The notes beneath the pieces are model-generated. The model was not told where the DNA came from. It did no database searches and was given only the letters and a program-made list of their open reading frames with translations. Shown here in pieces: positions 9,501-54,817 of a stretch of DNA of 64,000 nucleotides. Source of the DNA: Haliotis cracherodii (taxonomy: Eukaryota); the NCBI RefSeq assembly GCF_022045235.1, contig NW_027266273.1:4712001-4776000 (forward strand), given 5' to 3'. How positions within the stretch are numbered: position 1 is the stretch's first letter; the number at the start of each line of letters is the position of its first letter. The translations under genes and the position numbers were made by a program.

Positions 9501-12500
9501 CGTGAATCAAGACGTAGTATATGGGGCCGTGCTGGTGTAGTAGATGCCAACACATTGACTTTTACAGCCAAAAACCTGGTGGTCAACAATGAGTACTTCT
9601 TCCGTGTCCGAGCAGTCAATTCTGAGGGAGAGAGTCTGCCTCTAGAGGGTGTTGACTCTGTCACTCCCAGCAAGAAGAAAGGTAGGTTGAACACATGAAG
9701 CAAGAAATACATGGGATGTCACTCTGTTCAAGTTTCTCAGTTGTCTTCTTGATAAAAGACTAATATGGATAGCTTCAGGTATTTGTAGGGCCACACAGTA
9801 TTTCATTCTGCTTTTGATCAAGTAAAGTCTTGTAAAAAATTCACAGCCTGGATCGTAAACCCCAAAACATTTTGATGAACTTGTGCAGTCACCATTATCC
9901 CAGTAGTTTCTCCAGATTCCCCGTGGTAAATTCTGACATGATTTCCCAATGACAGGGGCGACGCCATGTTTGTTTATAAACACTGAATGTAGTCACTACT
10001 TGCCCTTTGATATTTGTTTATCTATCATATCTATCCACATATGACCCCAACGGGTATCATTCTTATCTGTTGGCTTTATTCTGCTGAGAAACCTACCCAT
10101 TATATGATGAAACGTGTGATTGAGACCCCCTTGCTTTGACGAAGACAGTTTCCTCAGACTTCTTGGCCTACCAGCACATTCCTGGATATGGATTTCTCGA
10201 TATCCAGATTGTATTGTGATCTCTGTCTTCATCTTCCACAGATGTACCAGAAGCACCAGCATACATCTACCCCGGCCGTGTCTCCGACTCGTCCGTCACA
10301 ATCGACTGGAAGGCTCCTCTCAAAGATGGCGGTTCTCGCGTCAAGCAGTACCATGTGAAGATGACCGAGGACAAACCAGGCTCACAGTGGCTGGATCTGG
10401 GATCAGTGGAAGCCTACAAGACATCATTCAAGGCTAAAGACCTTGACTCCAAGAAGAAGTATCTGTTTGCAGTGGTGGCAGAGAACAGTGTTGGTCTCAG
10501 TGAGATGAGCGTTACAGACAGACCAGTGTCAGTCAAGACTGTTGTCAGTGAGTAGACAAATCTTCCATCTTAAAGCGAGCTACAGAGTAATAACCCAAGT
10601 ACTCTTGCTATTCTTAATATGGTGATTACATGGTTACAATGACTGTTGAGCTTGGGGGATAGAATTGAGTTACTATGATGGGATAGCTGGCTTTAAAAAA
10701 GCTTTTGTTAGTGTGTCACCATACTAAGGTAATGACCCCCTGGAGTAGAAATCCTTGGAAGAATAAGTAAGGATAAGATTTATGGATGAACAATTTCTTT
10801 ATTACAACTAAGAGTGACGTTTCGTTGTAGGTTCCAACACCATTATCAAACAAGTGATATACAGAGTATGGTTGACAAGTAGAATAGGTAGAGACCCATG
10901 TTTGGTGCATAAGCTCACTAAAAGAAGAAATGGATGCTCAAAATGTGCAACCTTGCTGATTGTGTGTCATGAGATGCCATCCTGACATCAACCAAAATGG
11001 CCCCTTTTAGATGAAAATTTGCTCTCTGTGCAAAAACCAGCATTCCATTCACTTTATGGGTACACATAATTTGGCTGATGGTTTGTCGGAATCAGATTGT
11101 TACAGATGTAATGATGCTCCCTAATGCAAACTTCTTTCCTTGTCCCCAGAGCCACCATCACCACCTGAAGGACCTCTGAAGGTCATCAACCTGAGAAAAG
11201 ACGGAGTCACCCTGTCCTGGATGCCACCCGAGGAAGATGGCGGTGCTCCAATCACTCACTATCTCATTGAGAAGCGTGATGCGTTCAAGACCAACTGGAG
11301 TCATGGAGACAGGGTCAAGGCCAGTCAAACCACAGCTGACATCGACTACCTGACCCCAGGAAACAGCTATCACTTCCGGGTCCTGGCTGAGAACCTCGTT
11401 GGCATCTCAGATCCTCTACTGTCAACTGAGCCTATCACACCAAAGAGTCCATACAGTAAGTATTTTCATTTTTAGAGAATTTAAAATGCAATACCAGACT
11501 AGACCAAAAATATTCTTGTAATTAGAATAAGCCTAACTAAACTTTTGTAGACCAGGGTTTGATTCCTGACATGGGTACAATGTGTGAAGCCCATTTCTGG
11601 TGTCCCCAGCCGTAATATTGCTAAAAGCGGCATAAAACAATATATTCACTCACTCACTCCATATCATGAATGGACTCATTTTGTAAAAAGCTATTGTAAT
11701 GTGATTGGCTGTGCTTCTGTACTTTAACGTAGCACTATAACACTGCAACCACTTTATGAAACAAGTCCCTTGTCATATGTCTTTTGTCCCTTGCTAAAGG
11801 ATACGATTTTTTACCCATATTTATTCAATATTTGAATACAGTGAGCTAAAAATGGCCTCAGAACAAATCATTTACAAGTTATGTTCTTCCAGATGTGCCC
11901 TCGCCACCAGTTGGGCCACTGGAGATCACCAGTGTGGATAAGAATTCAGCCACCCTCAAGTGGAAGCCATCAGAGAGTGATGGAGGACTTCCTATCAAGC
12001 ACTACGTCATTGAGCGTCGTGAGGCCAAGAGACAGTCCTGGTTGCGTGTGGACAGTGTCCGCCCCACCACTCACAGTTTCACCGTGGAGCGTCTCATTGA
12101 GGGCAATGACTACATCTTCAGGGTGTTTGCTGAAAATGATGAAGGCCTAAGCCTGCCATTGGAATCTACTTCACCAACATCGTGCAGACGTCAAGCAGGT
12201 CCGTGTTTTGAGAAGCAGACATGAAACTGATCTTATCACTGTTACTGTTGCCATAGTCATCAATTTTGCAAATCTATCTGAGTAAATTTTACTTTTTATG
12301 AGGCAGATTGTTGAATGGATTTTAAAAAATTGATGTTCATGGGTGTGGTCACAATAAAGAATAACACACAAGATTGTTCTTTCAAGAAAAGCACATATTT
12401 TGTTGGCCCGACTTTGACATAAAAATTTCTTACTTACTCAAGGTAACTGTTATATCTCAAGCTTATGATCGTATTTCATTGTGTGAGAGGTTATGTTAAG

Positions 12501-15500
12501 TTAAATCATTCATTAAGTTTTTGTGGAATATGTTTTGATAATGATTATGTTATTTTATCTCACATATGAAAATGACACCAACTTTTAATATTTTCCTCCT
12601 AGAACCCCCTGGCCCACCATCAGGCCGAATCCGAGCCAGCAAGATCACTGCCGACTCCGTTATGCTGGACTGGCTGCCTCCCATCGACGATGGTGGCTCC
12701 CCAATCACCAAGTACATCATCGAGGCTCGTGGGGCCAGTGACACCGATTGGAAGACCATGGCTGAAGTGGACTCTATTGCCACCAGACAGAACATCCGGA
12801 ACCTTAAAACTGGAGAGGTATATGACTTCAGAATCGCTGCAGTGAATGCAGTCGGACGCAGCAAGCCTAACAACCTGGACACAACTGTCAAGCCAATAAG
12901 ACCACTTGGTAAGTCAAGACTATCAAATCTATTATGACATTTTTCAGATGTCATTTTAAAAGATTAAAATTCATTTTGTATTTCTTTACCATTAACTAGA
13001 AGCTCCAGGTAAGTCAGGACTATGGAATCTATTGTTTGATTTTATAAATGTGATCAAGTTTAAAAGATTAAAATTCATTTTGTTCTTTCTTACCATTAAC
13101 CAGAGGCTCCAGGAGCTCCTAGAGGACCTCTGCAGCTTACCAACATGAGGCGTGACACTGCCACGTTATCATGGCAACCACCTCTTGATGATGGAGGCAC
13201 CCCAGTGACAGGCTACACCATTGAGAAGAATGACATGACCCGCAATGCTGGCTGGATGAGGGCAGCAAGAGTCGCCGGCCCCGTCACCAACTACACTCTG
13301 TCCAGTCTCGTAGAAGATCACTCGTACATCTTCCGCGTGTCAGCAGAGAACAAGATCGGACTTGGTGCTCCACTAGAAATGAAGACAGCTGTTGTTGCAA
13401 AGAGCCAGTTTGGTGAGATCTGTTTTTATAAAAAATATTAGTTCTGGCACGTTTTAGTGCTCTAATATAATCAGACATAATATAACAAGACATTGGACAT
13501 GCAAAATATGGCCTGTATTGGTCTGAAGTTTCATCTCAAAAGTATATGTACTACAATGAAAAAACCTTGTTTGTTGTACATGAACAAAAACCAAAAGGAA
13601 TCAACAAATAGTCAAAATTTCATTGCTAAATACCTTGTAACAAACAATTTATGACAACTGACATCACTTTAATGGTGGCGTTCTCCTGTTAGATGTTCCA
13701 TCACCACCCAGTCGTCTGCGGGCTTCTGATGTCATGGACGAGACAGTTGAACTTGAATGGCTGCCGCCAGACTTTACTGGTAACCTTCCCCTTACTGGTT
13801 ATGTTGTTGAGCGTCGCGATGCAGACAGGATGCAATGGCAGAGAATCGGCAACACCACACCTGATGTGACCAAATTTGAGGCCTTGAACCTGTTGGAAGG
13901 TCGTATGTACATGTTCCGCGTGATGGCGGAGAATGCAGAGGGTCTCAGTGAACCGGCCATGTTGCCAAGACCCATCATGCCCGAGAGACCAGTTGGTGAG
14001 TGACGGTTCCAATATTTGTTTGACTGGATCTTTATTGCCTTTTGGCAGCGTTCTTTGGTAAATTAATCATGGACTCTGCTCCTTGGTATGTTTCCAATGT
14101 CCAGTCTAGGTCAAGATATTGTAATTGTTCCCATGTATGAAATGAAGACATTGACTCTGTGTAATTTAGGTAGTCTTGCCCTTTTCACGAACACCTGGTG
14201 TCATCACTGATTTTCAGTGCCCCATTCATATAATTGTCACCGCTATTTTGCCTTTAACGCCCAGTGGAATCTGTTTCAAGAAATAATCAAGATTCTCTGG
14301 TGTTGATGTTTTTATGTTTAACTTCAAAATTGATATACATCAGTGGTGCTTGCATGAGTTGAATCAAGCTTTCTGGGACTGCCAATTGGCTTAATTGAAC
14401 TTTGTCACTTTTGGGGGTTGCAAATAAGATCATGTGACTAAATGATGACATGACTGCATCTTCCTGTGGTAAATGTTGTAGAATGTGGTTGAGAGACACC
14501 TCAGAGTCCATCTGTTAGCTGAAAATATCACTGTACTGCTGCATGGTAGATGATGCTCACACTATCGGCCACCAGTTTGCCTACTCCTGACCTAACACAT
14601 TCTGAAAGCTGCTGAGATACTCACTGATCCTGCTTATCCTTTGTGCACAGATCTACCCGGACCTCCAGAGGACCTTCACGAGACAGCTGTGGACCGAAGT
14701 ATGGTGTCGCTGACATGGCGCCGACCACAGTATGATGGTGGCGCTGTCATCACAGGATACAAGATCGAAGAAAGAGATGGCAAGGCAGCCACCTGGGTGA
14801 CGGCTGGAGAGGTTGGAGGCTTTGACCTCATGTACGACGTCCGTGGACTTATTGAAGGATATGAATACTTCTTCCAAGTCAGCGCCAAGAACATCAGAGG
14901 CTATGGTCCACCTGCTGAGCTGAAACAGGCCATTGTGCCATCTAAGCAGAAGGGTGAGTGACTTTACAAACTTTGTCAATACAATCTGTGAAGCTTCTCA
15001 TTACAATTTACTCAATAAGGTATGTATATTCAAATTAATGGTTCGATTAAACAAATTAGGAAAGATTTCTCAATATTCAAGGCGTTTTCAATATGATTTA
15101 AGAAAAAAATTGGCCCAGTGTTATTACTTGAAATGAAGATTTCCTGGTTTCTATTCCCTAAATTATATATGGTGGCAGGTTTTGTCGTCCCTTGCTGTGA
15201 TACAATATTATGCAAGCTCTTTCATAACTTTCATTTACTCAATTTGATGACAGTTAGAAAAATGTCAGTGGCTATCAATGTTTCTTGATGTTGTTCCTCA
15301 GGTAAACCATCCCGCCCAGTTGGTCCACTCCAATGCAGCAACATCACCGACGACTCTGTGAAGCTGTCATGGCTGCCGCCAGAGAGTGATGGAGGGTCCA
15401 GACTGACTGGCTACATTGTAGAGAAATCTGACATCAGACGTCCAACATGGCTACGTGTTGGCAAGGTCAGTAAAACCTGATTCACTCACTCATTGATTAG

Positions 15501-18500: not shown

Positions 18501-21500
18501 GATGGACACAAACACTTCACATCGTGGCTAAATAAAGGGGAGATAGCCTCAGTCTGACATCCAGCTTTATCTTAACCCTTAGTGCCTCTATATGTATGAT
18601 GTCCTTGCTTGTCTCACTTAACCTTCTTGCCTTGTGTTTGTGGTGCATGGTGCATGTGGAAATCTTGTAATAATTCTTTCATTATGTCATTTCTTTCAAC
18701 TTGTCAGTCTGTTTATGATATTACAGTCAAAATGTTTATTATCGAGACATTTTTCAAAACTTGTAACACGAGTAGAGCTCCATGTTGAGCCAATTTCATT
18801 GGTGTAATTGTTTTCAAATAAAGTAATGTTTCCCTGTTCTATCCTAAACAGACTGATTGTACTTTAACTTTTTAATCAGTAATTTGTTAACCAAGACTGC
18901 TGCTGCTCTGTGAAGCTGTTGAAGCATCTAACATTGAAATTATTGGTTCAGTTTTCGTTGATCTTCTGTATACTTACTTACCTTTCCTCTGGTGCTTCTT
19001 TGCAAAATTAACAAAAGCTTCCTATGAGATATGGTCTCAGAAGTTCAAACATTTTGAGGAGGAATAACACCATGATAATTGAAAGGATTATATGTAATTT
19101 ATTTCCTATAACTGTAAACAAGTAAGGATGCATTGGAAAAGATATTGTGAATGAATTGAAACCCAGAATTCTAGACTGCATATTTCTTGATTATTATTCG
19201 GAAAAATATATGATATCATGTTATCTATCTATAGCTGCTTTAACAATTGAAATTTGAATTTAATATATATTTTTTGGGGAAAACAAATTGACAGGTGTAT
19301 TCATGTAATTTTCAAAATTATGAATCCTTGACGCTTTCTCTGCATCCTTCTATGAGATTTATGAGATTAAAAAATATATTATCTTGATTATATATCAAAA
19401 TTTTCTATAAGACACATTGTGGTATCTACAATAATCTCTATACTCTGTGTTGGGCTTCCTTGATTAGCCTGTGTATTATTTCTCAATTCTATTGGGATGA
19501 ATATCCTGGACTCATTTGTTACTATAGCTTCGATTTGAGCCAGATTCAAATTAGGTGACAACTAAGATTGCCATCAAATCAAATAACTCTAAGACTGAGA
19601 GAATTTCTGTGCTAAGCTGGTCAAAGGCTAGATGAAGATAGTGACGTCTCTTTCTAATGAAGCTTCGATGGCAAATGGGTCCAGGGTATTTATTGTACAA
19701 AATGGAGATATAATACCCTGGATAGTAGAGGATGAGTGTTGGAAAGTCAATGGTTGACGTGTCAGCAGCTGTCTTGGTTAACTCTCTGTGACAACTCACA
19801 TTCTCAACGCTGCTGTTTCTCTGTTTCTCCAGAATACGCTGGGAATAGTTGGCTCCGCCAGGCAAACCTTCAACCATGTATTAATGTCTACATGATTCAG
19901 AATCTAACAAGATACGAGTATATCTATCGTGTATACGCTGACAACCCCCTAAGCTCTGTGTGGGATTCCATAGACTTGAGTTCTATTGCGGGACGATTTT
20001 AACAAATTGATTGTTATCCAACCACACATTATATTCTCCTAACAACTTATGGTGTGAAAGTTCGGAAATTTGATTTAATTTGACGCGTTCTCATTTCTCT
20101 TAACATATTAACCACTAATTTATTATTCATTGCTAAAAGCTTTCTGATTTAATTTTTAATGACTAACATTTGTACATTCTATGACTAATATCTGTACATT
20201 TATGTATGGTAACTTTGTTAACATTGTTAGTTTTCTTATTTCACTGATCTCTTTGTTGATATTGATATTAACATATTTCCTTGGCTGTGTCTGGAGCATA
20301 TTCACCTGATGGGCATTAATCATCAGAGATTGTGAGTTGTGTTCATTTTCTGCATTTGCGTACCATTATTATTGCTTCTTTCTGCGCTGAAGCTGTCATA
20401 TAGACGCATGCGAATATTTGGCTTTTCCAGCTTTTGAGGTATTAACAATGTACCAAAATTGCATAAATTTCAGGAAACATGTCATAATGTCAAAAGTAAA
20501 TATTGATGTTTGGGGTGTTTCATTTTGGCCTTTACTTAAACATAATTTGTTTCCTTTTCTGTTTGAAATTTATTAATGTGTCATTTTCGGTGACTGTAGT
20601 TATCTCCCCTGACTTGATATCTACAGTTGCAATTATATTGTTGGGCACATTTGTAGATGCCAAACAGCAAAGGAAATAGTTCTGTTTAAAAATGTTTATT
20701 GAAAATATAATGCGCTTTGCTTAAATCTGAAATATTTATCGATGGAAAACAAATCTCTAATGATTTCGGCCCTGACCCTTTCACTTGTATTATGCTCCAT
20801 ACACAGATGATTCTATGTGTTAAACTGTCATTTGTGAAGTCAAATATCTCCTCTTTAATTGCTATAGGTTTCCCTCGGTGAATAAATCTTTATAACTGTT
20901 GGCGATGTTATTTTGTTATCAATATTGTACCATGTTGTGTATATTAGTGTAGACTAGATGTAGTCAATGTTGTCTATAACAGCACTCACGTTGCATACAC
21001 AGACAATATGTTGTCGTATTACAGGATCAATGCTGAATGGCTCACGATGCATGGATAGGAAAGTTTTTGGATCAAGTGTTATAAAACAGTTACATGACAG
21101 CTATAATAAAGTGGTATTTTAGAAGCTGTAATGTCCATGAACACTAATGGATTCAACTTATTTATTAAGTTATTTGGAAGTTTTACACAAATGATTCATT
21201 CTTGGTTTCAACATCAGAAAGTCTGATGCTGATCTCAAAGAAATGTCATTAAAATCAGATCTTAGTTCACCCTACCACAAAACAAAGATTTGAGGACATT
21301 ACGGGTCATGTCATACGACCTTACATTCGCCCAATCAGGGCGTTGCTTACCAGATCAGGAAAGTGACATTCGGAGTGTATTTTCTCTTCATGTAACCTCG
21401 AAAATGTTAACACAGGGTTTTACGAACGACAGTTACAGGTTTTATGACCAAATCCATACAAGCTGGGCCATTTATTAACCATTCTAGAATGTTGTTTTGT

Positions 21501-24500
21501 TCAGTTTTCAAATTTTTAATGAAAAACTTTGACAAGATGTGTTTCGAAGGATAGTCACCAGTTTGAAACTAGTCCCGAAAGTAAGAAAGATTGCCTTCTG
21601 ATTGCCCAATATCGACTTCTGCTCGATCAAAGTTGCGTCAAAGTTGGTTGGTCACATTTCGTGAAAGTTCGGTCTGACGTGACCCACATTGGGCTGTCTT
21701 CAGATCTTTGTTAAGGTGTAGCAAGAACTAAGATTTGATTTTAATGAGATTGATCTCAAAGCATTGACTGAAGCTGTTAAATGATGTTGTAGAAGTTACT
21801 CCCTCTGAACGTCTGTTGTGATATCAATGATGTGAAGTGGTTCTAAAACAATACATCAAAATTAGATAGTTTCTGAAAAAGTTCTTCTACTGAATCTGTA
21901 GAATAAAAAGAAGTACAGTGAAGTCTTGTTAAATCAAACTCCTTGATCTCAAGATGATACGTCTCAGTAGAAAATCGTATTTCGAACTGTGAATATCTTT
22001 TCATTTTCTATGGTGATCAGGATATCTAGGTAACGCTACAGTTTTCGTTTAGTCAGTTATGTGAGTTTGTGACCCTTGATCTTCAGACTTTCCATGTATC
22101 TTGCATATAGCATACTAAGAGCATCTACACATGGCCACACTCACTTGACTCACATAAGCCACACTGACTCACAAATACATGTTTCCTGTGTATCACACCT
22201 CACAAGGCTCATCTATCAAGTTAGTTGCACTCAATGTTTTTACTCATTTGCAAATAATGAACATTCTAATCTGAAAATAACTCATATTACATCATGAATG
22301 ACTGAATTTAATTTAAAATTCGTTCATGAAACTTTCTCACTTATTTTTTTTGTCAACATTTTTTCTAACATTTTGTCATCTTCTGGTACTTAGATTACTG
22401 GAATTATGTGTTAATTTAAAAAAAGTTGACTAAAACAAGATTTTAAGAGTAAACTACTTGGAATAAAAGATTTCATGAAAAGATGCAAAGGAAAAGTATT
22501 CTTTGAAAGAAGTCTGATTTCATTATGGCCAGGGACTCCTTGGGGAAGAACCTTACTAATTCTTTTGAATGGGAATAAACATCATCCTCTGTGAGGATTT
22601 GTGGAATTACCGCTGCAAAATAGATCTTCAAGAACATTAGAACAGTCACAAGTTTGTCATGATAGTCTGCGACTAGCTGATGTTAAGCTGGTCTGTGTAG
22701 ACTTTGTTTCCGTGTAATATGTTTGTGTGTACTGTCCACCCTGTCATACTTGGCATCCAGAGTCCGTTCCGGGAATGTCGTCACTTTTACCAAAGTCAGG
22801 TAAACTTTGTGTACGTGTTTATTGTGTTTCTGTATGTGCAGTCACACCCCTAGCTGTCTCAGGGCCTATAGTCCTCAACAATTGTGCCAAAGTGACATTT
22901 GGCTTAGGGGTTTACCTCCAAAACCTGAAGGTTTAATAGGACTGTTTTATATGTTGTGTATGTTAAGTGTATGTACTGTATGTCATCTATATGAGCTGTC
23001 CATTGGATGTCATTTAGCTGTATGTCACTTGATATTACTGTCCGTCACTTGACATCAACTGTTGATGGGATGAACATCAGAAGTACGGCAGCAATTTCAT
23101 GGGTACATGTTTGCTTATTGTCAGTTGTACTTTAGCTGAATATCAAGAGTACATTGGCTGTACATCAACTATACACCGGTTTTATGTCAACTATACCGTA
23201 TTCGACATGATAAGCTCTCAGGGTGCTCTCAAAATTAGAAATAGGGTCTCTTATTAGAATAAAATTTTGGTGAAAAACAACAGAGTTGAAAGATCGTAAA
23301 TTTTGTGGTTTATGCTGACAGCCTGAAATGTCTGTCTGTGTGTATTATACATGAATGATATATTTTTCAAGAATTAAATTACCCATAATTAAGGGTGCAT
23401 ATAACACGCGAGTGTGTACTATACACGAATAAATAAGTCTTGTGTGTATTGATCAATCGGAAGGAATTGGAATTGTTCACTAGCCAATATATTAGCAAAT
23501 ATTGCCGTGGGCGCTTATTAGAGCGGGGCACTTATTACGTCGATAATGGTATATTGGCTATATATTGGATAAACATCAGCTGTACGTCAATACACAGTGC
23601 ACCTGCTGAACAGAAGCTTAACGCTGGCCATAGATTGGATATACATTAGCTGTATGTCAGCAATACATTGACAGAGTATCCGATGAACAGAGGCTTAACA
23701 TTGGCCATAGATTGGATATACATTAGCTGTATGTCAGCAATACATTGACAGAGTATCTGCTGAACAGAGGCTTAACATTGGCCATATATCGGTTATACAT
23801 CAGCTGTATGTCAGCAATACACAGTGCACCTGCTGAACAGAAGCTTAACATTGGCCATATATCGGATATACATCAGCTGTATGTCAGCAATACATTGACA
23901 GAGTATCTGATGAACAGAGGCTTAACATTGGTTATATGATGGTTGAACAGAGGTATACATTGGCTGTACATAAGGTCTACATCGACTGTACGTCTGCTGA
24001 ACTAGAAGCTTAACGCTGGCTACATGTAGCCTAAACATCAACTGGACATCGGCTACACACCAGAGCCCTGCACAAAACCTGCACAAAACAATCGTAGCTA
24101 TATCAGATTGCAATCCTAGGCTACGACTGCACACCATACACTTGCACAAAGCCATTGTAAGTTAAGATCATTTTCAGCTGCAATTGAAATTTACAATTGT
24201 TCTGGACTAAGATTATTGTAGTCCCTGAATTAACTTGAACAAAATGGCATACAAGATAGGGTCTGTTTCACAAGTAATCTTTACTTTCAAACATTACCAT
24301 TTCATTTTGTTTAAATGTGTGATTCGAACTGACACTTTAGCAGCATGAAGAACGCATTTCAGAAATATCATGTCAGAAATATCTTGAATCACAATAGTGA
24401 ACCACATATGAGCCGATAGCTAAAAGTACCATTACCACCAGACTCAAATGGTGAAAGAAGTGTTAAATAGTGGTAACCTTATCGATGACGAAGAGTTTAT

Positions 24501-27500: not shown

Positions 27501-30500
27501 GCAACCTGAAATGTAATGAAAAACTAAAAAAATGGTTTGCTATAAATATTCATTTAGGCTTCAGTGACCTATCTGTGTATTCAGTCTTTATCAACCAGTT
27601 CTGGATTACACAGGTTCAGTAATCATTTAAATATTTAAAGGAGGAATAAGCAACAACAACAAACATTATTAATGTGTTGTTGTGCCAGAGCCACCTTTAT
27701 ATGTAGCATTAAAAAAATGAAAATGATTTGTATGAATGCTGCTGACATAGCTTAATTATCAGTTATGATGTGCATACAAACAGTCAACAATAGAGCTGTA
27801 TGATATACAAATACATTACATTTTAAAACAGGTCCACTACAGCTGTATGATAGAATTATAAAACATGTTCAGTACAGCTGTTTCATATGATTATAAAACA
27901 GGTTCAGTACAGCTGCATGATATAAATCCTAAAACAGGTATAGTAGGGAAGTACGATATGATTATGAAACAGGTTCAGTACAGCTGTATGATATAATTAT
28001 AAAACAGGTTCAGTAGAGCTGTATGATATAATTATTAAACAGGTTCAGTACAGCTGATATAATTATTAAACAGGTTCAGTACAGCTGTATGATGTAATTA
28101 TGAAACATGTTCAGTACAGCTGTATGATATAATAATAAAACAGGTTCAGTACAGCTGTATGATACAATTATGAAACAGGTTCAGTACAGCTGCATGATAT
28201 AATTATAAAACAGGTTCAGTCCAGCCGTATGATATAATTATAAAACAGGTTCAGTACAGCTGTATGATATAATTATGAAACAGGTTCAGCAGTGCAGCTA
28301 GTTATGTCCTTCAACGTCTCAACACACTGATTCTCCACCACAAGAGACTGGACAATGCTATGACCTATTTACAAGTCCTCGTGAAAAGACTGAAGGAACA
28401 AACAGTCCCAAAGAAAACATGTCACATCAGTTGGCACAATTCACTGTGCAGGATTGCGTCCCTTTGTTGTATAAGTATCTGCTGATCATGAGGTCGACTC
28501 CCTTGTTGTTGTCATCCTTGGTTTGTCAGCTCCATACCTACGGGTTTCACTTTGCCCTCACGTAAGTGGACAGAGGTGGTGGGGTAGCCTCTTGGTTAAG
28601 GTGCTCATCACGCCGAAGACCCGGGTTCGATTCCCGATATGGGTACAATGTGTGAAGCCCATATCTGGTGTCCCCCACCATGATATTAATGGTGTATTGC
28701 TTAGAGCAGCTTAAGACTATACTCACTGACTCATAAGCGGATATTTAAGCGGTTTAAAGATGACACTGAATCAGGTAACAGATGGCCATGTGGTCCTGTC
28801 AAAACTGCGTTATCTCACACACTCATTATGTATTTTAACTTAAGTGTGTCTGTGATATGGAATGGTTGAGTGATGTTGGGTTTGATGCTGCTGTTGACAT
28901 TCAATATGTTTGTCACAGTCTGTCAGCTTCCTGTTGGAGTAAACACCAGAAGACAAAACCAACGAGTATTGGTATTTACAGACCAAAGATCACAACATTG
29001 GCAAGCCAGTGGAACCTTCAGGGCTGTACTGCTAGTCACTGTGCAGAGTTGTATCCCCTAGCCATGCCAGGATCCTCTGATCATAGGTTCAGACAATGTT
29101 GTCTGATAATTATCTGTGGTTTGTCAACAATGCTTATTAGTTTCATATTATCTCTGAGGTATCCTCCCACTTTAAACTGCAGTACTGTTCAAAGCAATTA
29201 AACCCCTATATGGGATTGTGTAGCTTCCCTTATCATGGACCTGGCAATCATATATTCATGCGCTCTGTATGTCTTGCAGCTCCACCAGAGGCACCAGCAT
29301 CATTACGGGCGGAGAACATCGACAAGGATTGTCTCACCCTTGTCTGGAACCCACCAGAGGACGATGACAGTATCACTGGCTACATTGTTGAGAAGAGGGC
29401 ACAAGATTCTGAAACCTGGGAACGTGTTGCACATGTGCCAGGCAAGACTACAGCTCGCGATGTCATTGGTCTGCCAGAAAACCAGTCATTCTTCTTCAGG
29501 GTCATTGCAGAAAATCCTGCCGGAGTTAGCCCCCCTGCTGAACTCCGACTTCCTGTTGAGCTGAAGGCAAAGAAAGGTAGGAGCAATCTAAAGAAATAGG
29601 TTACAGTAAATAAATATTTGTTCATGATTTAAGATTTCATTTTGCGTATATTGGTAGAATAATTCATTCCAACAGTCATCCTAGAACATATGAAAATATA
29701 TTTTACGTAATGTTTGCTAGTTGTTCGTTGTTCACATATCAGCACTTGTAGATGAACAGGCTTTCTTTTCTTTTTTGCCTTGAACATTGTGTGAGAGTTC
29801 GGTTTCTCAGCATGCTTTAAATGTTGATTTTTGTAGTTTCACAGTAGTTATACACAGTAGTTGAATGCACAGGTTTTCTATTCTAGGTATCTGTTTACTT
29901 TTTACTCTGACTTGCTAAATACATCATTATTTGTGGCATGACAAGTGTATTCCAACAGTGTATTCCCATTGTATTTAACTACATGCATGAACCTTAATCT
30001 ATATGCCTTTAATTCATTTCAGATTTATTTTCTTTCATAAAGGTTTGCTAATTATTAACACCTAATGTCAAATGTTCAAACAAATCTCTTGAATAAAGCA
30101 TGATACAAACATTTGTTGTTGTTTATTTCTCTTCTTTTTTTTCACTGAATGGATGATAACATGTGTGAGTTGTTTGAGTGTGAATGCATGACCTTGACCC
30201 TAAAGTTTGCTGTGACCTTTCTGTGATTAAACCTTGACCTTTCCTTTGCTGTCAACCTATGACCTCATTATCCTTGACCTATCTATTGCCTTGCTTGTTC
30301 TTTGTGCTTCATACTTCTGTCTGTATATTGTGTGTTGTCAAGTTTGGAAATTGTGCCTCAGTTGGATATATTACACCAGTATTTTACTATGAATTATTTT
30401 CAAAAATATATTTGGACACTATACTGCTTAAAACCTTTTTCATATTTGGGGTAACATGCAGCATTGATCTTAAAAAAATACCATTTTTTAATAATCAGGT

Positions 30501-33500: not shown

Positions 33501-36500
33501 CCTGCACAGTCACCTGCCTGGAAGACCGAGGACAGTTCAAGTTCCGCATCCTGGCAGAGAACATGTACGGCATCAGCAGTCCTGGACCTGAATCCGAGCT
33601 TGTGGTCACCCGTGAGCCGATCCCAGTCGTGGACTATGACAATCTATGTAAGGGACAAGGCTTTGTGTGCTTTTTGAACTTTATTTGCAAGGTGGTATTT
33701 CACAAAGAACAGATTTTCATGTATTGATATGAGTAATGGATTTGGAAGGGTTGTTTTGATCTAACACTGTATTAATGTTGTTCCTTGAAGAATTTCTGGA
33801 AAAATGTCCTGATTTTGTGCAAAGAAGGGGTATTGTGTCAGTTGCACACATAAAGTAGTTGGCTTACTTGCTTTTAGCCTTGTTGAGGCAGTTCTATTGA
33901 AGAAGGAACAAGATTTCTGTGATAAGAGTCTTGCAGATTGATAAAAAAATTGTTCTCAGTTAAGAGATTTACTAATGTACGAGTACAACTCTAATACACC
34001 TCTAATCTCTAATACAGATGATGCTGACTTCACCGGAACTCCAGTTGATGTAAGCAGAATCCGAGGAGACATCCTCAGCAAGTACATCATCTGTGAGGAA
34101 CTCGGAAGGTCAGTCACAGCTCGTTCCCAGCAATGTTCACGCGATAATATTTATCAAGCATGTGTTAACAGTGAAACAGCTTCATGTTCTCGATGCCTAA
34201 TTTAGTTTCTTTACAAATACCAATATAAGTATACCGATCTCACTTAACAGTCAATGTCATTACAGAGGTGCATTTGGTGTTGTCCATCGTGCTGTTGAGC
34301 GAGCCACCGGTAAGAACTGGGCCGCCAAGTTCATCCGCTGCCGCCCCCACGAGAAGGAGACGGTGCGTCACGAGATCGACATCATGAACCGCCTCCATCA
34401 CAAGAAGCTGCTGCAGCTCCATGAGGCCTTCGACCAGCCCGGAGAGATGGTCATGATCCTGGAACTGTGAGTCCTTTGTTAAGTCTTTGGACCTGTGAAG
34501 ATTCCGGGGTAGAATAGGTCTTCAGCAACCCATGCTTGCCGTAAAAGGCGACTATGCTTGTCATAAAAGGCAACTAACGGGATCGGGTGGTCAGGCTCAC
34601 TGACTTGATTGATGCATGTCATTGATCCCAATTGTGTGGATTGATGCTCATGATATCAGTCACTGGATTGTCTGGTCCAGACTCGATTATTTACAGACCG
34701 CTTTTTCTAACAGTGGGGGTAAATGATATTGGTCATGATAATAATAATACACTAAAATAGAGCTAGGCACATAGTACATGACATGGTAAGGGAATCAGCA
34801 TGTATTTGAATTTCTATTCTCAACTCCCTGAGATGACACTATATTTTCTGGTCAGGTGATCCAGTTTTGGATATAACAAAATAAATGTTTTGTTGAGTTG
34901 GATCAAGAGTTGGATCAAATGTTGCTTGTGTTTGGAAACCTTCATGAGTTGATTAAGATGCTATGGCATGTGTTTGCAGACTGAGTGGCGGCGAGCTGTT
35001 CGACCGCCTGGTCCAGCAACAGTATGACCTGACAGAGGAAGACTGCATTACCTACATGCGGCAGATTTGCCAGGGCGTGCAGCACATGCACAGCAACAAC
35101 ATCATCCACCTTGACCTCAAGGTCAGTCACGCACTTTCAACATTTTTTAATTATGTGCTTGTACATGATGCCAACCCAGAGTACAGTTGTTTCTGTTAAA
35201 ACATACAGATTCTACACAAAAGAAAACCTGATTATTTCATTTGACAGATAAGCTATAGTCATATGAACAAGTATATATATATGGTAACTGTTGAAGGAAT
35301 TTCTATCATAGAAGCTTCATGTTCTACATGAACTCTGAACAATCGGTAGGCAAGTGGCTACAGTGTTTGCCTCATTTCAACAGAGACCCAGTTCAAATCC
35401 AATCATTGGTAAAATATGTGATACCATTTCTGTTTTCTGCTGTGATATTACTGAACTATACCTAAAGGCGGGGCGGTCTGGTAGCCTAGTGGTTAAAGCG
35501 TTCGCTCGTCACACCGAAGACCCGTGTTCGATTCCCGACATGGGTACAATGTGTGAAGCCCATTTCTGGTGTCCCCCGCCATGATATTGCTGGAATAACC
35601 ATACTAACTCACTCACTGTACCTAAAAGCAGTTAAAACCTTAGCTTTCATAATGATGGGTGATGTAACTGAAGCAATGACATAAGTGTCTGTCCTGTCAA
35701 CAGCCAGAGAATGTCATGTGTGTGACCAAGGACAGCAAGGACGTGAAGCTCATCGACTTCGGATTGGCTCAGCGCCTGCAGGAAGGCAAGTCCGTCAAGG
35801 TTCTGTTCGGAACAGCCGAGTTCTGTGCACCTGAGATCATCAGCTTTGAACCTGTGTCCTTCGCAACCGACATGTGGTCCCTCGGAGTGGTCTCATATGT
35901 CCTGTAAGTACCCGGTATTGTCAAACCTGCCTGAAATCCATTAGGAAACTTATTTGAGGTGAGGTGAAATGGGATTTAACGTCACCTCCAAGATTATTGC
36001 ACTTATATAGTGAGGTACATGCACATCTGTGTGTGGCTGCTTGAACTAGTCTGGACTTATAGTGCTAGCCCACTGAGATACCATGCTGCAGTTTAACATG
36101 GATACCCTACTCAGACACAGTATACTGCCTCCAAGCCAACAAGTCCTTGTTTTTTCCCCTTAATGCTTAGTGCCAGGGTAACAACAAGTACCATCTTTCA
36201 ACGTCTTTTGGTATGATCTTGTCAGACAAAGGCTACCTGCTTCTCTTATTCTGTTCATCTGTATGTTTAAGCTACATTGCAATAAATGAAGCAACTGACA
36301 GTGGTCCGAAGTGTTGCTATCCTAGATATGGCATTGTATTTTGAGTGTATTTCGTCCAGACTGAGCGGCTACTCACCATTTGCTGGAGAGAGTGACCAGG
36401 AGACCTTTGTGTACATCAACCGTGCCGAGTTCGACTACGATGACGAGGCCTGGGCGCCTGTATCAGAGGAGGCCCGGGACTTCATCAACAAACTCCTCCT

Positions 36501-42500: not shown

Positions 42501-45500
42501 GCAATCTCCAGTCTTTGTATGGTAGACCGGTGGTATAGATGCTAGTTACCTGACACCTTGTTAATACCACTGGGTAAACATAGGTACATCTTTAACTGGT
42601 TACCTAAAGGTCATAATAGGCTATGCCACATCTGGTTGTATTTTCTCATGAAGTGAATATCAGTCAGTAAGAAGATAGTACTGCGGTCAATAAGAGGTGG
42701 ATTTGTTTCAGTATAGTGTTTTGAAACCTGAGTGGAATATATATAGTATCCAGTCTGGGTTTTGTTTCATAATGTCATTAATGAGATGGCGATTTATTGT
42801 AAATACTGAGAAGAAACGAATATTCAAGTTTTGAAAGAGATGTTGATTCCCTGTGTTGTGTCCACAGAACTGCCAGAACATGCCCCCATTGTGTACGAAG
42901 AACTGGATGATGTCACAGGTTACGAGGGGTCAAGGACACAGTTGGCATGCAAAATCATTGGGAAACCAGCCGCAGAAATCATGTGGTAAGTTGGTGTGAA
43001 TTTGTATTGTTTGAAATATTCGCAAGGGCAGATCCAGAGGCATGTTTCAGCACGGCTGATTTCTCAGATGTGTGTTCCGATGTACAATTTTGTACAATGT
43101 TTGTGCCACGTTATATAGAAATACAAGCCCTGTATACAAGTCTCTCCTTGTATACTCTGAATTGATTTACGATTTCAGTTGTCAGGTACCCTAAGGTATT
43201 TGTGGGTGGAATAGATCCCTAGTATGTATATTCATTGTAAGAGAGGGGCACGGGTGTCCCAGTCGTCTAAGGGGTAGAGTTGTGCAGAGTTGCATCCCTT
43301 GGGCACGCCAGAAACCTATGATTTTGGGTTCGAATTCCAGTGCTCTGATTATGTTTCTAGGTATGTCAGGACCATACCCATGCTCGTGGGTTTCACCGAA
43401 GTGGTTAACGTCTGAGACCTGCATCACTTCGGGCTTTCCTCCCACATTAAGCTGACACGCCGTGATATAACTGAAATACTGTTAAAAGCGGCGTTAAACC
43501 CAACTCCCTCACTCATTGTAAGAGCCAGCTAATTGGGGATCAGGTAGTTACTGTCTGTGTGACCTGGGCCCATTCTATAAAGTGTTCGCAACTCTTACAC
43601 AATTATATATCCAATACATAAACAGAGACATACATTCATTGTAGCGCTAAGATTACTTCATGGAATGATTTTCTCCCTGAGTGAAATTGCTCTCATTTGC
43701 ATTTTTGATAGTAGAGTGGATCTGCCCTTGATATTAAATTTTCAAAATATTGGCTTTATGTACACAGTAAGTCTGAGGTACTCTGGTTGGTTTATAAAAA
43801 ATTTGTGCAACAAAGCAAAATTGTGGACAGTGTTACACACTTAAATGTGTGATTCACGCAGCTTCAGGTGGAAGATTTAAGCCAGTAGTCAGCCTCTTAT
43901 TCAGGTGCACATTATGAAGACTGTGGGTATACCTATCAAGGTGCAGTACTTGATGTACCTATGTGCTCATCCTCAAGACAAGAATATCCCAGATTATCAC
44001 AGCTTCTCTTCCATGCTGTGTATTTTGGCAGCGCTGATGATGAGAGTTACACCTTTACCAGCACTTCTGCACGTGTTATGACATTATTTGTGCATCACAA
44101 AACAGATGCACATCTTGATGCAGAGATCTGACATTCAAGTACGTGATAACTTGTGGGTTGTATAACATAAAGTCATTCAGTGCCACTTAGGCCAACCTCA
44201 TTGCATTGTGGTAGGAATCTGCAGTTGAAGGATTTGATACACTCAGAAACACTGGATCGAGTGAGTTTGGCTTAACAGTATTCCAGGTACATCAGACGTG
44301 TTAGTTTAATGTGGGAGGAAAGCTCAAAGTGATGCAGGTATCAGACGTTTTCCAGGGATATGGTGTGGACAAACCTAGAAACATCATTGGGATGAACCAG
44401 GATTCAAACCAGGTTCTGTTATCCCAAAGGATGCAACTCTGCGCAGCAAAGTGGGCCACCTGTGTCCAACCAAAATCACGGGAAAGAGATAAACAACACT
44501 TTTTCAGACACAAGCTTTTTGTCCTTTTCATTTTTTGGCCCCATCTTTACATTTCATGGAATAAAACTTGCATTACAATACATGGTGTTTTGATTGTAAT
44601 AGGTAAACAAGAAATAGGTCACATCCCGTCATTATTATCTTTGTTCTGCTGAAGTCGAGGTGGTTTTAATGGAAAATACGTGGTGGTGTTATAGGGAAGA
44701 CATGGTTTTACTGGGGAAGATGTGTGGTGTTATGGGGAAGATGTTCTTTTACTGGGAAAGATGTGTGGTGTTATGGGGAAGACATGGTTTTACTGGAGAA
44801 GATGTGTGGTGTTATTGGGAAGACATGGTTTTACTGGGGAAGATGTGTGGTATTATGGGGAAGACATGGTTTTACATGGGAAGATGTGTGGTGTTATGGG
44901 GAAGACATGGTTTTACTGGGGAAGATGTGTGGTGTTATGGGGAAGACATGGTTTTACTGGGGAAGATGTGTGGTGGTGGTGATGCCGTTTGTCTATGTAG
45001 AAGAAGTATGCTGGGTAGTCATTACAAGTCCCATGGTTTGTACTCAGCCTGTCTGCAATGTTATTCTTCGCTATTTGATCTGATGAGGTTCCAGAATCAT
45101 TCATTGGCTTCATCACCTGCGCTGAACAGATGGTATATGAGCCATTAGATGGTTGCTTAACGAAGAGATGCTCCATCATGAGAAGGCACACCGGTTGTGC
45201 AAGTAAATGTCCTTTACATATTTTAATGTAGTTTTCAAGGTTCTTTAAGCTGAGGAGAATGATAAATTAGGTACTTTACACATTTTCGGATTCAATCTTG
45301 CTGATGACAGCTGCTCTTTTTATGGATTAAGTGGTTTGTTTTAATCAAGTTAGCCACTTAAGATTAGTGTTTCGATGACAAAAACTCTTTTCAAACAACA
45401 CATCCCTGATGTCAACTGTTCACCTACTGTAGACTTATTCTGCTATTCTGGTCATGGTCATATTGGACACTACTTGAAGGTCAGCTGAGAGAGCACTGTG

Positions 45501-48500
45501 TGGCCATGTCTGGCTACAGTGGCTGGGGTCCTGTGTATGAGGACTTCTACAGCACCATGAGGTATGACCTAAAGTTGCGAGATGGTCGTATGCCTTTACT
45601 TCAACACTTTTCGAGTTTCGTCTCTGGGAGCTATGTTGTAAGCACTGGAGTTAAAGTGCATTCCCGTAGATGTCGATTCAGATCCAACTACAGGTAAATA
45701 ATTGTCACTGCATACCAGTTTCAAACAGTCACATCATGATATGCAAGGTATTTCTTTCTCTCAGTATGATATGGACCAAGTCTTCACTAATTTTAGACTT
45801 TTTGTCTTCATTTTTGTGAAGCACAGAATTTTCTTCCTATTGAAGTAAAATTCATTGGATGACCTTCAAACATGTCAAAATGTCATCGTTTATTTAAAGC
45901 AGATATGATATAAGGCCCTATGCCTTTTGTCTTGTGTGCTCCTAAGCCACTGTAACAGATATGTTATTGGGACAATACCATCTGTTTGTTGGCTTATAAG
46001 CCACCTTAAGAGAAATGTGATCAGGACAATACCATCTTTTTGTGTACTGATAGGCCAATGTAACAGATATGTTATTTGGACAATATCATCTGTTTGTGTG
46101 CTTATAAGCCACTGTAACATATATGTAATTTCATGGACAGTATCATCTTTTTTGTACTTATAGGCCACTATAGGGACGGTCGGGTAGCCTAGTGGTTAAA
46201 GCGTTCGCTCGTCACGCCGAAGACCCGGGTTCGATTCCCAACATGGGTACAATGTGTGAAGCCCATTTCCGGTGTCCCCCGCCATGATATTGCTGGAATA
46301 TTGCTAAAAGCGGCGTAAAACCAAACTCACTCACTAACTCACTATAGGCCACTATAAGAGATATGTTATTTGGACAGTATCATCTGGATGTGTGCTTATA
46401 AACCACTGTTAGGTATACAAGTCCCAATACCATATTCTTGTGTACTTATAAGCCACTGTAACAGATGTACTACAAGTCTCAATACCATGTTGTGAACTTA
46501 TAAGCCATTTGAACAGATATGTTATTGCAGCCATTCCTTCTTCTCGTATGCTTACAAGCCTCTTGAACAGATATGTTACTGGTCCAAGTTCCACCTTCTC
46601 ATGCTCTCATAAGAATGATATAAACATCCCAGTGTGTCTGACATTTGTGTGGGGGACCCCATGTCTAACACAGGTAGACTGTGAGTGGCTCTCTTACGTC
46701 TGTGTGTTAGGTCCCTGCAACAAATGCCACATGAAATGAGAGATATCTACTGGTAGACATGATGGAAATATCAAACATAGTTTCTTTGTGAGTAACACAA
46801 AGTCCCAAACTGAGATGGGATGACAGGCATCATGGTGGTGTTTGTAGAAAATGAACTTACGTAAGTTGTTTTTGAGAGCATTGTTGTATTGAAAACTGTT
46901 TTTAATGATTGAAGTACAGACAAAATTATGTTATTTAAGATCAAACGACGAGTGAAAGTTGTTTATCATACAGAAGTGTTTTATTGTATGATATACAACG
47001 ACCACGAGTCATTTATTTCTTATTTGAAATATCAACATTATGAACAGCCTCTTTGGGGATGTTAATATAATGTATAAGTTTTAAAAATATTTATCCAAAT
47101 TTAAATAATGATGGGACCCTGAATACAGTTTGATTTCGGCAGTGTTGGACGAGTCTCTTATGTGAAAAGTGGGGTTAAGTTTGGTATTCCCCTGATATTC
47201 TCAGAATTTTCTCGTTGATTTTTTGTTCCTTATTCTCCTAATTCCGATAACTATTATCCTCAAAATGAAGCCGGGTTTTTTTCATACTGAAAAAAATTAC
47301 TCTTAACACATACTGTTGGTTGTGAAGTGCTGTGGCTTCAAAAAACGATGTGAAACTATTTCAGCAATTTAAACAACACGGACACTAGCTATCAAATAGA
47401 AAGATTCACAAGGTGACCTACATGTTGGGACTGACTGCATATGTTGTGAGGTATGTGTCCTGGTCTGCAGCCATAGAAACAAAACTTGAACTTGAGGAGG
47501 ATATTGAGTTAAAAATGCTAATTTCTGTCAGTTATCATCTGAGTAAACAGTGGGTGTGGTTGAAACCCTCATCAGACTACCACCATTCCAACAGATGATT
47601 AATGTGTGAAGAGAGAGGTTTCACAGAGCTATATCTAGACACAGGTGATTGTGTTGCTGCACAGGTGGTGGTGAGATGTACGCCACTGTGGGGGATGCAA
47701 GCGTTATCACATGGGGAGTAGTGATGGACTGTATGCCTCCAAGGTGTTACTGATAGGCGGGACTGTGTTACCGTGTTATGACGTTAGTTGTGAGTTAATG
47801 TTCTGCTGTCATGAGAGCACTGTTAAACATGTTATTTTGAATGAGGTTTGAATGTTTCAAGTTCCTGACATTTCTGGCATTGTTTAAATTTTAGCTAAGG
47901 CGTTCCATTATTTGCATGGTTTATGGATCCAATGACCTTAAGCACTGAAAATTCAGAAAAAAATGAAATCAGAGTCACAGACTTTTTCCATACCACCGAC
48001 TGTAAAGTTCGCTTTGACAATAAAATTGACAGTAGAATGCCGCTGTCATTTTTTTACAAATATAATATTTGTAAGGATCTGAACCAGGGCAAGGTTATTA
48101 TGTTATTTTTTTTCACATTCCAACCCAAATCCAATTTTAGGATGATTACAAAAATCCTGTAACATGCATCTTTTTTGTTGGGGCTGTCCTCAAGTCCTGC
48201 ACAACATCACGACAAATAGCTGCACGCTTCCTTAGTCTCTCGCTCATGTACAATATGAGTGCTCGACTAACTTCCAGATCAGGAATTTAAATAGTTAATA
48301 TGTAAATGTTCTGAAGAAGGCGATATTCAAATGTTGTAATTACCATGAATACAACAATGTTTTCACCTAAAAAAATAACCCCTGGTGTAGCTTTCAAATT
48401 GTAATAATTTGTAGCTATATAACATTGAATTGAATCAATACAACAATCAACAAGTACCAAGAGGAGAAATCAAACTAAATGGATATTCATATTAACAATA

Positions 48501-54500: not shown

Positions 54501-54817
54501 GTTGAAAGTGCTGTGGCCGTTAGGGTTGTACGAGAGGTTTGTGAGGAAATAAAAGTTGCAAAACATGTGGTTGAGACGCAACAAATATACACAACAAACA
54601 TTCAGGAGGAGGTAATCCAGTCCGAGACACTGACAGAGACACATGTGGCAGTGGAAAGGTGCGTGTTGTCAGGCCTCAGTGTAATTCAACCTTGGATAGG
54701 ACGTAGTGAAAGTCAGGTTTGATAAGCTGCTTCTAATCGTCAAGGAGAGGTAATAGGCTATGATTCCTGTAAATGTTTTGAAATAACAGTGACTCTTCAC
54801 GTCATCTGCCCTCAGAA

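What the first reader, a model, noticed from the sequence alone, without database searches (positions are those of the whole stretch)
12909..13112. Whole-intron tandem duplication creating a 9-nt microexon
Seen: intron 12909-12999 (gtaagtcaagactat...taaaagattaaaattcattttgt...taccattaactag) is followed by AAGCTCCAG and then a diverged second copy at 13009-13103 (gtaagtcaggactat...taaaagattaaaattcattttgt...taccattaaccag), then the real exon starting AGGCTCCAG. Both copies keep GTAAGT, a TTAAC branch-like motif and YAG although their middles diverged. Inference: a snapshot of exon/intron gain by duplication. Inclusion would lengthen the FN3-16/17 linker by EAP without a frameshift.
Basis: seen in the sequence. 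Interest (0 to 1): 0.7.

Follow-up and report, generated by a model that had tools for sequence, protein, structure and literature searches.

The report
Silent duplicated intron in abalone titin-like gene
A short intron in a giant titin-like gene of an abalone was copied twice in a row together with nine letters of the next exon, but the assembled RNA that was checked skips those nine letters, so it is likely a tolerated duplication of a known kind rather than a newly born mini-exon.

Summary
The duplication is real. 12909-13008 and 13009-13112 match at 83 of 100 aligned bases. DNA contigs from another study and from a second species also carry it, so it is not an assembly error. The gene is a Haliotis titin/twitchin-like FN3 array. 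All 5 RNA-like runs laid (3 studies) join 12908>13104 and leave out the 9 nt; contigs drop rare forms, so minor inclusion is not excluded. Four of four mollusc orthologues covering the junction have the skipped spacing. The copies differ by 17%, about 4-12 times the gap between the two species, so this is not a fresh snapshot. The spare splice signals have survived no better than drift predicts (P about 0.4-0.6). The first acceptor is weak, and TTAAC lies only 5 nt from the AG. The 9-mer ends in CAG|GTAAGT, so the nearby splice routes give either the normal mRNA or an in-frame insert, which probably explains why it is tolerated. Closest known kind: amphioxus 'mirages'. This scan noted such splice-boundary repeats elsewhere in this genome, and a second one lies in this gene.

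The parts
12603..12908 (+). Upstream FN3 exon (306 nt, phase 1 at both ends) of a titin/twitchin-like gene
   Evidence: Open frame and splice sites; covered by RNA contigs, joins 12196>12601 and 12907>13103 with cut shifts
12909..12999 (+). Intron copy 1 (91 nt). Its donor is the one used (12.0 bits); its TAG acceptor is weak (1.3 bits) and not seen in use
12970..12974 (+). Branch-point-like TTCAT of copy 1 (A at -27), inside a 27-column identical run; branch function inferred
13000..13008 (+). 9-nt copy of the start of the next exon (candidate microexon, would add EAP); skipped in 5 of 5 RNA-like runs; 13001 reads G in organism B run X11, making it identical to the exon start
13006..13014 (+). 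CAG|GTAAGT at the duplication junction: strong donor (10.6 bits, 71st percentile) and weak AG|GT acceptor (1.6 bits); a possible zero-length recursive site
13009..13103 (+). Intron copy 2 (95 nt). Its CAG acceptor is the one used (4.9 bits); its donor is not seen in use
13074..13078 (+). Branch-point-like TTCAT of copy 2 (A at -27); branch function inferred
13104..13412 (+). Downstream FN3 exon (309 nt); its first 9 nt are the source of the 9-mer

Best explanation
A roughly 100-bp tandem duplication copied one whole short intron and the first 9 nt of the next exon of an abalone titin/twitchin-like gene; assembled RNA joins the outer donor to the outer acceptor, likely by removing the doubled intron as one 195-nt intron, so the protein is unchanged and the copy is likely a tolerated passenger. 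Shown: the duplication, its presence in two species, and skipping as the assembled form. Inferred: (1) it arose by slippage or unequal repair, helped by a 2-nt GG match at the breakpoints; (2) the inner donor is ignored because only 9 nt and a weak acceptor lie before it, while the outer donor is defined by a normal 306-nt exon; (3) it has persisted because the 9-mer is a whole number of codons and ends in CAG, so the three nearest acceptors (13000, 13003, 13009) followed by the inner donor give +9, +6 or 0 nt, all without a stop.
For: Skip junction 12908>13104 in X7, X8, X10 (organism A; contig depth 422, 290, 8), X14 (B; 165) and X16 (D; 18): 5 of 5 runs laid, out of 8 RNA-like runs listed; neighbouring canonical joins show these are spliced RNA. 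X7, X8 and X10 show no other letter at 13105, so the 9-mer is not swapped in for the exon start. Littorina, Bulinus, Plakobranchus and Pinctada orthologues have the 102-residue spacing of the skipped form (4 of 4 that cover both exons; 5 other proteins examined did not map both exons adjacently). All 51 scored FN3 exons are 297-309 nt. The copy-1 acceptor scores 1.3 bits against a leave-one-out median of 9.2, and TAG vs CAG differ at -3. Signal columns have 6 of 50 mismatches and free columns 11 of 50 (Fisher p=0.29); this fits one copy drifting (P=0.6), and the chance that the 8 spare core bases survive by drift is 0.36-0.47. A second boundary duplication with a decayed donor lies in the same gene. 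Amphioxus mirages are reported not to disturb regular splicing (PMC3087553, passages).
Against: All RNA evidence is contigs, which drop rare variants; the runs are only guessed to be RNA and their tissues are unknown. The doubled intron differs less between species than the next intron: X11 3 of 195 vs 14 of 280 (p=0.048), X12 4 of 195 vs 15 of 280 (p=0.095; two end-of-contig differences inferred), shared 3 of 195 vs 12 of 280 (p=0.11). The caveats are one comparison intron, a post hoc test, 10 of the 14 differences clustered in 100 nt, and 21 rows not shown. A 27-column identical run over the branch region is borderline (p=0.05). The inner donor is strong and intact. One-step versus two-step removal was not observed.
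Confidence: 0.66

Rival explanations
1. Same mature mRNA, but made mostly in two steps: either donor 12908 to the CAG at 13008, regenerating a GTAAGT donor (recursive, zero-length exon), or copy 2 removed first and the CAG then used as acceptor for copy 1.
For: CAG|GTAAGT with an inherited branch-like TTCAT 36 nt upstream; this route gives exactly the skip form. It is the only YAG|GTRAG inside a true intron among the 51 intervals scanned; the other hit is a real donor of an exon missed by my motif. The ancestral intron was about 91-95 nt, so each copy is probably spliceable (inference). YAG-ending cassette exons are excluded through distal recursive sites in human (PMC10156609, passages). Cross-species divergence is slightly low.
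Against: The AG|GT acceptor scores 1.6 bits, 2nd percentile. In human introns under 1000 nt conventional lariats prevail over recursive ones (PMC10156609). A TAG lies 9 nt upstream, and in human minigenes the AG nearer the branch point wins once the AGs are more than about 6 nt apart (PMC2875228, passages), which would give inclusion rather than skipping.
Confidence: 0.14
2. A real alternative microexon: a minor or tissue-specific isoform includes the 9 nt and lengthens one FN3-FN3 linker by EAP, and selection keeps both inner splice sites.
For: In frame with no stop; GT and AG intact in both species; strong inner donor; the 9-mer equals the exon start in organism B, and the single change in A is synonymous; low A-B divergence (p 0.05-0.11).
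Against: 0 of 5 RNA-like runs show it, two of them at depth 290 or more; weak acceptor; fixed domain spacing in 51 exons and 4 orthologues; signal retention fits drift. X12 contigs leave exactly base 13013 (+5 of the inner donor) uncovered, as a heterozygous change would, though low depth explains it equally well.
Confidence: 0.13
3. Mildly leaky duplication: the inner donor is sometimes used while copy 1 is retained, giving stop-containing RNA that would be degraded and could trim expression.
For: Retention of copy 1 or copy 2 brings an early stop; the inner donor is strong and the copy-1 acceptor weak.
Against: No RNA contig depth in the bins lying wholly inside the intron in any of the 5 runs, though contigs show presence, not absence.
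Confidence: 0.06
4. Assembly artefact.
For: None found.
Against: The copies are 17% diverged. Single contigs from X5 (organism A, study P2) and X11 (organism B, study P4) cross the whole region without a gap.
Confidence: 0.01

Closest known systems
Amphioxus 'mirages' (Adh3, globins BflGb6 and BflGb9; PMC3087553, passages read)
   Same: Tandem duplication across an exon-intron boundary; unit of similar size (10-160 bp there, 100-104 here); copies 81-100% alike there and 83% here; extra AG/GT signals kept; regular splicing apparently undisturbed; proposed there as raw material for intron gain.
   Different: Here there are only two copies, and the same number in the assembly and in the DNA runs laid. 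One unit holds both the donor and the acceptor of the intron, so a complete potential microexon is formed.
[quoted passage not shown]
   Same: The duplication crosses an intron-exon boundary and inherits branch site, pyrimidine tract and acceptor; it is shared by two close species.
   Different: In potato the new junction was backed by 106 RNA-seq reads and used a newly activated donor. Here both sites are copies of existing ones (a class the review leaves out of its intron-gain table), and no RNA shows a second intron.
Distal exonic recursive splice sites (PMC10156609, passages)
   Same: A candidate exon ending in YAG directly before GT can be removed without trace; proposed there as an intermediate in exon birth and death.
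   Different: Shown there by lariats in human, with the branch point inside the exon. Here the exon is 9 nt, the branch point lies in the upstream intron, the acceptor is weak, and no lariat data exist.
Microexons (27 nt or less; PMC8378409, search listing only)
   Same: 9 nt, frame-preserving, flanked by AG and GT.
   Different: No inclusion seen; no TGC in the last 30 nt before it (the UGC motif of neural microexons is recalled, from no call); the host is a titin-like gene, a muscle protein class (recalled).

Membership tests
Mirage-type splice-boundary duplication | Tandem repeat spanning an exon-intron boundary | tested here: met
Mirage-type splice-boundary duplication | Extra copies carry AG/GT signals yet regular splicing is kept | tested here: met
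   5 of 5 RNA-like runs skip; contigs only
Mirage-type splice-boundary duplication | Minisatellite-like array with variable copy number | tested here: not met
   Two copies in the assembly, X5 and X11; X12 covered it in two pieces with no gap. It works like a mirage but is not a minisatellite in the strict sense.
Microexon | 27 nt or less, flanked by AG and GT, frame-preserving | tested here: met
Microexon | Included in mature mRNA as a major form | tested here: not met
   0 of 5 runs
Microexon | Included as a minor or tissue-specific form | not testable with these tools
   Only contigs were listed, no raw reads
Microexon | Flanking signals under purifying selection | tested here: inconclusive
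   Copy-copy pattern fits drift (P about 0.6); cross-species p 0.05-0.11
[quoted passage not shown] | Source sequence of the new intron identified | tested here: met
[quoted passage not shown] | Outgroup with the single intron | not testable with these tools
   Both species with DNA runs carry the duplication; the H. rubra protein ends before this exon
[quoted passage not shown] | New intron spliced as a separate intron around a retained exon | tested here: not met
   (assembled form only)
Recursive splice site | YAG|GURAG motif | tested here: met
   13006-13014
Recursive splice site | Strong 3' splice site before the AG|GT | tested here: not met
   1.6 bits, 2nd percentile of 50 acceptors
Recursive splice site | Lariats or intermediates show stepwise use | not testable with these tools
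   Needs total or nascent RNA reads

The most novel reading that the evidence does not exclude
The duplication made a self-cancelling cassette: a 9-nt exon whose last three bases double as a recursive acceptor, so the cell can remove the intron stepwise and toggle between the normal linker and one three residues longer in a giant FN3 array. Selection has kept this in at least two abalone species, which would make it a dated, mechanistically clear birth of a microexon from a duplicated intron.
Probability: 0.1. Interest if true: 0.6.

Novelty: new member of a known kind. Interest (0 to 1): 0.2.

Why it matters
As it stands it is a tidy example of a splice-boundary duplication tolerated in a conserved gene. 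In 51 FN3 exons of this gene, 34 of 1428 possible breakpoints (3-30 nt into the exon) are both in frame and end in YAG, as this one does. That suggests survival may favour such harmless breakpoints, although one case cannot show it. If inclusion or two-step removal were shown, it would be a small natural system for testing how microexons and recursive sites arise.

Tried and rejected
Assembly artefact: rejected. TTAAC as branch site: rejected on distance. Clustering of mismatches as a sign of selection on both copies: scan tests p=0.10-0.21, longest identical run p=0.05, a priori partition p=0.29. RNA structure hiding the inner donor: folding z=-1.65, 16 of 200 shuffles fold as well. Search for an abalone protein model spanning the junction: three protein searches gave only an H. 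rubra fragment that ends about 6 kb upstream; proteins longer than 7251 residues were not searched, so full-length abalone models remain unchecked. No listed run is on record as RNA and none is kept as raw reads. Gao and Lynch 2009 was not held and was seen only as a reference in PMC3443670. Paper searches for this exact configuration found nothing: 0 papers, nothing on point in the listings; most subscription papers are not searched. A search of earlier notes by words found 0. No supplements were read. Intron-size check: the other introns scored in this gene are 120 nt or longer (rough estimates of 255 nt or more in the upstream Ig region; one search failed on a BLAST parameter for this part). 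This says little, since the ancestral intron itself was about 91-95 nt.

Full report
Observation. Unit 1 (12909-13008) is a 91-nt GT..TAG intron plus 9 nt. Unit 2 (13009-13112) is a 95-nt GT..CAG intron plus the first 9 nt of the next exon. They align with 83 identities, 17 mismatches and one 4-nt gap, and the intron-intron score of 110 is far above 2000 shuffles (mean -6.4, maximum 26). The stretch has one match in the 1.18-Gb genome. The breakpoints share two bases, GG.

Host gene. The window lies in a giant gene in which each FN3 domain is one phase-1 exon; 51 scored exons measure 297-309 nt. At least three exons were missed by my motif, so a few of the 51 'introns' span an exon. Ig-like exons lie upstream and a twitchin-type kinase region downstream. 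A partial H. rubra 'titin-like' protein maps at a median 93% identity (81 segments at 80% or more) but stops about 6 kb before the site. The organism is therefore an abalone, and the gene is titin/twitchin-like.

Real, and shared. One contig of X5 (organism A, study P2) spans 12700-13700 with no gap. One contig of X11 (organism B) spans 12501-14049 with no gap in the duplicated part, and X12 (B) covers it in two pieces. In X11 base 13001 is G, so the 9-mer equals the exon start, and 12954 is G; both A states look derived (inference from the other copy). The copies differ by 17%, against 5% (14 of 280, next intron), 3.1% (9 of 291 synonymous sites) or 1.5% (3 of 195, locally) between species. 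The duplication is thus roughly 4-12 times older than the A-B split if rates are even and there was no gene conversion. No outgroup with a single intron was seen.

What RNA shows. Eight runs were listed as probably RNA, all kept as contigs; five were laid. X7, X8 and X10 (organism A, one study), X14 (B) and X16 (D, with B-like alleles) each have a contig joining 12908 to 13104; in X14 and X16 the four letters between are the B alleles of the exon end. In X7, X8 and X14 the flanking GT..AG introns are also skipped, which shows spliced RNA. None shows the 9 nt or either intron copy. Contigs drop rare variants, so this fixes the major form only. Four orthologues that cover both exons (Littorina, Bulinus, Plakobranchus, Pinctada) have the 102-residue spacing of the skipped form; the other five proteins examined did not map both exons adjacently and are uninformative.

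Splice signals. Weight matrices from 52 donors and 50 acceptors of this gene give: outer donor 12.0 bits, inner donor 10.6 (leave-one-out median 8.7); used acceptor 4.9, copy-1 TAG 1.3, and the CAG before the inner GT 1.6 (median 9.2). Branch-like motifs of the other introns peak at -25 to -21, and a TTCAT at -27 is present in both copies. Acceptors at 13000, 13003 and 13009 followed by the inner donor add 9, 6 or 0 nt without a stop; the other AGs inside the doubled intron, and retention of either copy, bring stops.

Selection. There are 6 mismatches in 50 signal columns and 11 in 50 free columns (p=0.29); P=0.6 under a model in which only the spare copy drifts; the chance that the spare GTAAGT and AG survive by drift is 0.36-0.47; window scans give p=0.10-0.21; the longest identical run, 27 columns, gives p=0.05. 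Against my reading, the doubled intron differs less between species than the next intron (p=0.048 for X11, 0.095 for X12, 0.11 for shared sites; X5 polymorphism 1 of 195 vs 5 of 280, p=0.41). This is one post hoc comparison. One search left 21 rows unshown, including 5 of the 39 differences on the long X11 piece; the complete X12 list suggests they lie elsewhere. X12 contigs leave only base 13013 uncovered, a weak hint of a variant at +5 of the inner donor.

Mechanism. Most likely the spliceosome pairs the outer donor with the outer acceptor and removes 195 nt in one step, a size in the range of the gene's other short introns (120-260 nt). The inner donor would be ignored because it closes only a 9-nt exon with a weak acceptor (inferred). 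A two-step route through CAG|GTAAGT gives the same mRNA and cannot be told apart in contigs. It is less likely: that acceptor is weak, short human introns favour conventional lariats (PMC10156609, passages), and an AG 9 nt nearer the branch point should win (PMC2875228, passages; human minigenes). The duplication probably persisted because its breakpoint is harmless on the nearby routes; 34 of 1428 possible breakpoints in these exons share both properties.

Comparison with what is known. It works like the amphioxus mirages: tandem copies of exon-intron boundaries with spare AG/GT signals that do not disturb splicing and were proposed as raw material for intron gain (PMC3087553, passages). It lacks their many, unstable copies and holds both boundaries in one unit. 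It falls short of intron gain as shown for potato RdRp, where reads crossed the new junction (PMC4974935), and the review by Yenerall and Zhou leaves simple duplications of existing introns out of its tally (PMC3443670). Earlier notes of this scan describe several splice-boundary repeats in this genome with the outer signal used (AI notes, loci not checked by me). I found a second, donor-side duplication in this same gene (74 nt repeated at lag 93, second donor decayed), so 2 of 51 scanned intervals carry one. Two searches for the exact configuration returned no paper, within a library that lacks most subscription journals.

Verdict. A selected or regulated 9-nt microexon remains possible at about 0.1 and needs raw RNA reads to settle.

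Noticed in passing
L002 about 9737-9903 (G000:C10 about 4711737-4711903), 260 nt upstream of the window: Second splice-boundary duplication in the same gene: 74 nt starting at a donor, repeated at lag 93, with the second donor decayed.
   Followed up: partly
L003, about 13-18.4 kb upstream of the window: A three-exon FN3 unit repeated about 3.3 times with near-identical protein sequence, suggesting recent expansion of the array.
   Followed up: no
L006, about 37-46 kb upstream of the window: Regularly repeated Ig-like exon pairs that the H. rubra protein does not cover: its residues 1332/1331 map 8 kb apart. This may be a lineage-specific expansion or an annotation gap.
   Followed up: no
window 19832-19999: Exon matching the C-termini of the Littorina and Bulinus proteins; probably an alternative last exon giving an isoform that ends before the kinase region at about 34264-35904.
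   Followed up: no
window 53844-54719: 292-codon acidic open frame (Glu/Asp/Val-rich) among the Ig exons after the kinase; possibly a large linker exon.
   Followed up: no
window 23553-23931, 27820-28289, 44661-44975, 45932-46169: Minisatellites with 77, 35, 41 and 54-bp units, outside the mapped exons.
   Followed up: no
window 12577, 13557, 13652: Organism B has 14-nt and 28-nt insertions and a 7-nt deletion in the neighbouring introns relative to the window.
   Followed up: no
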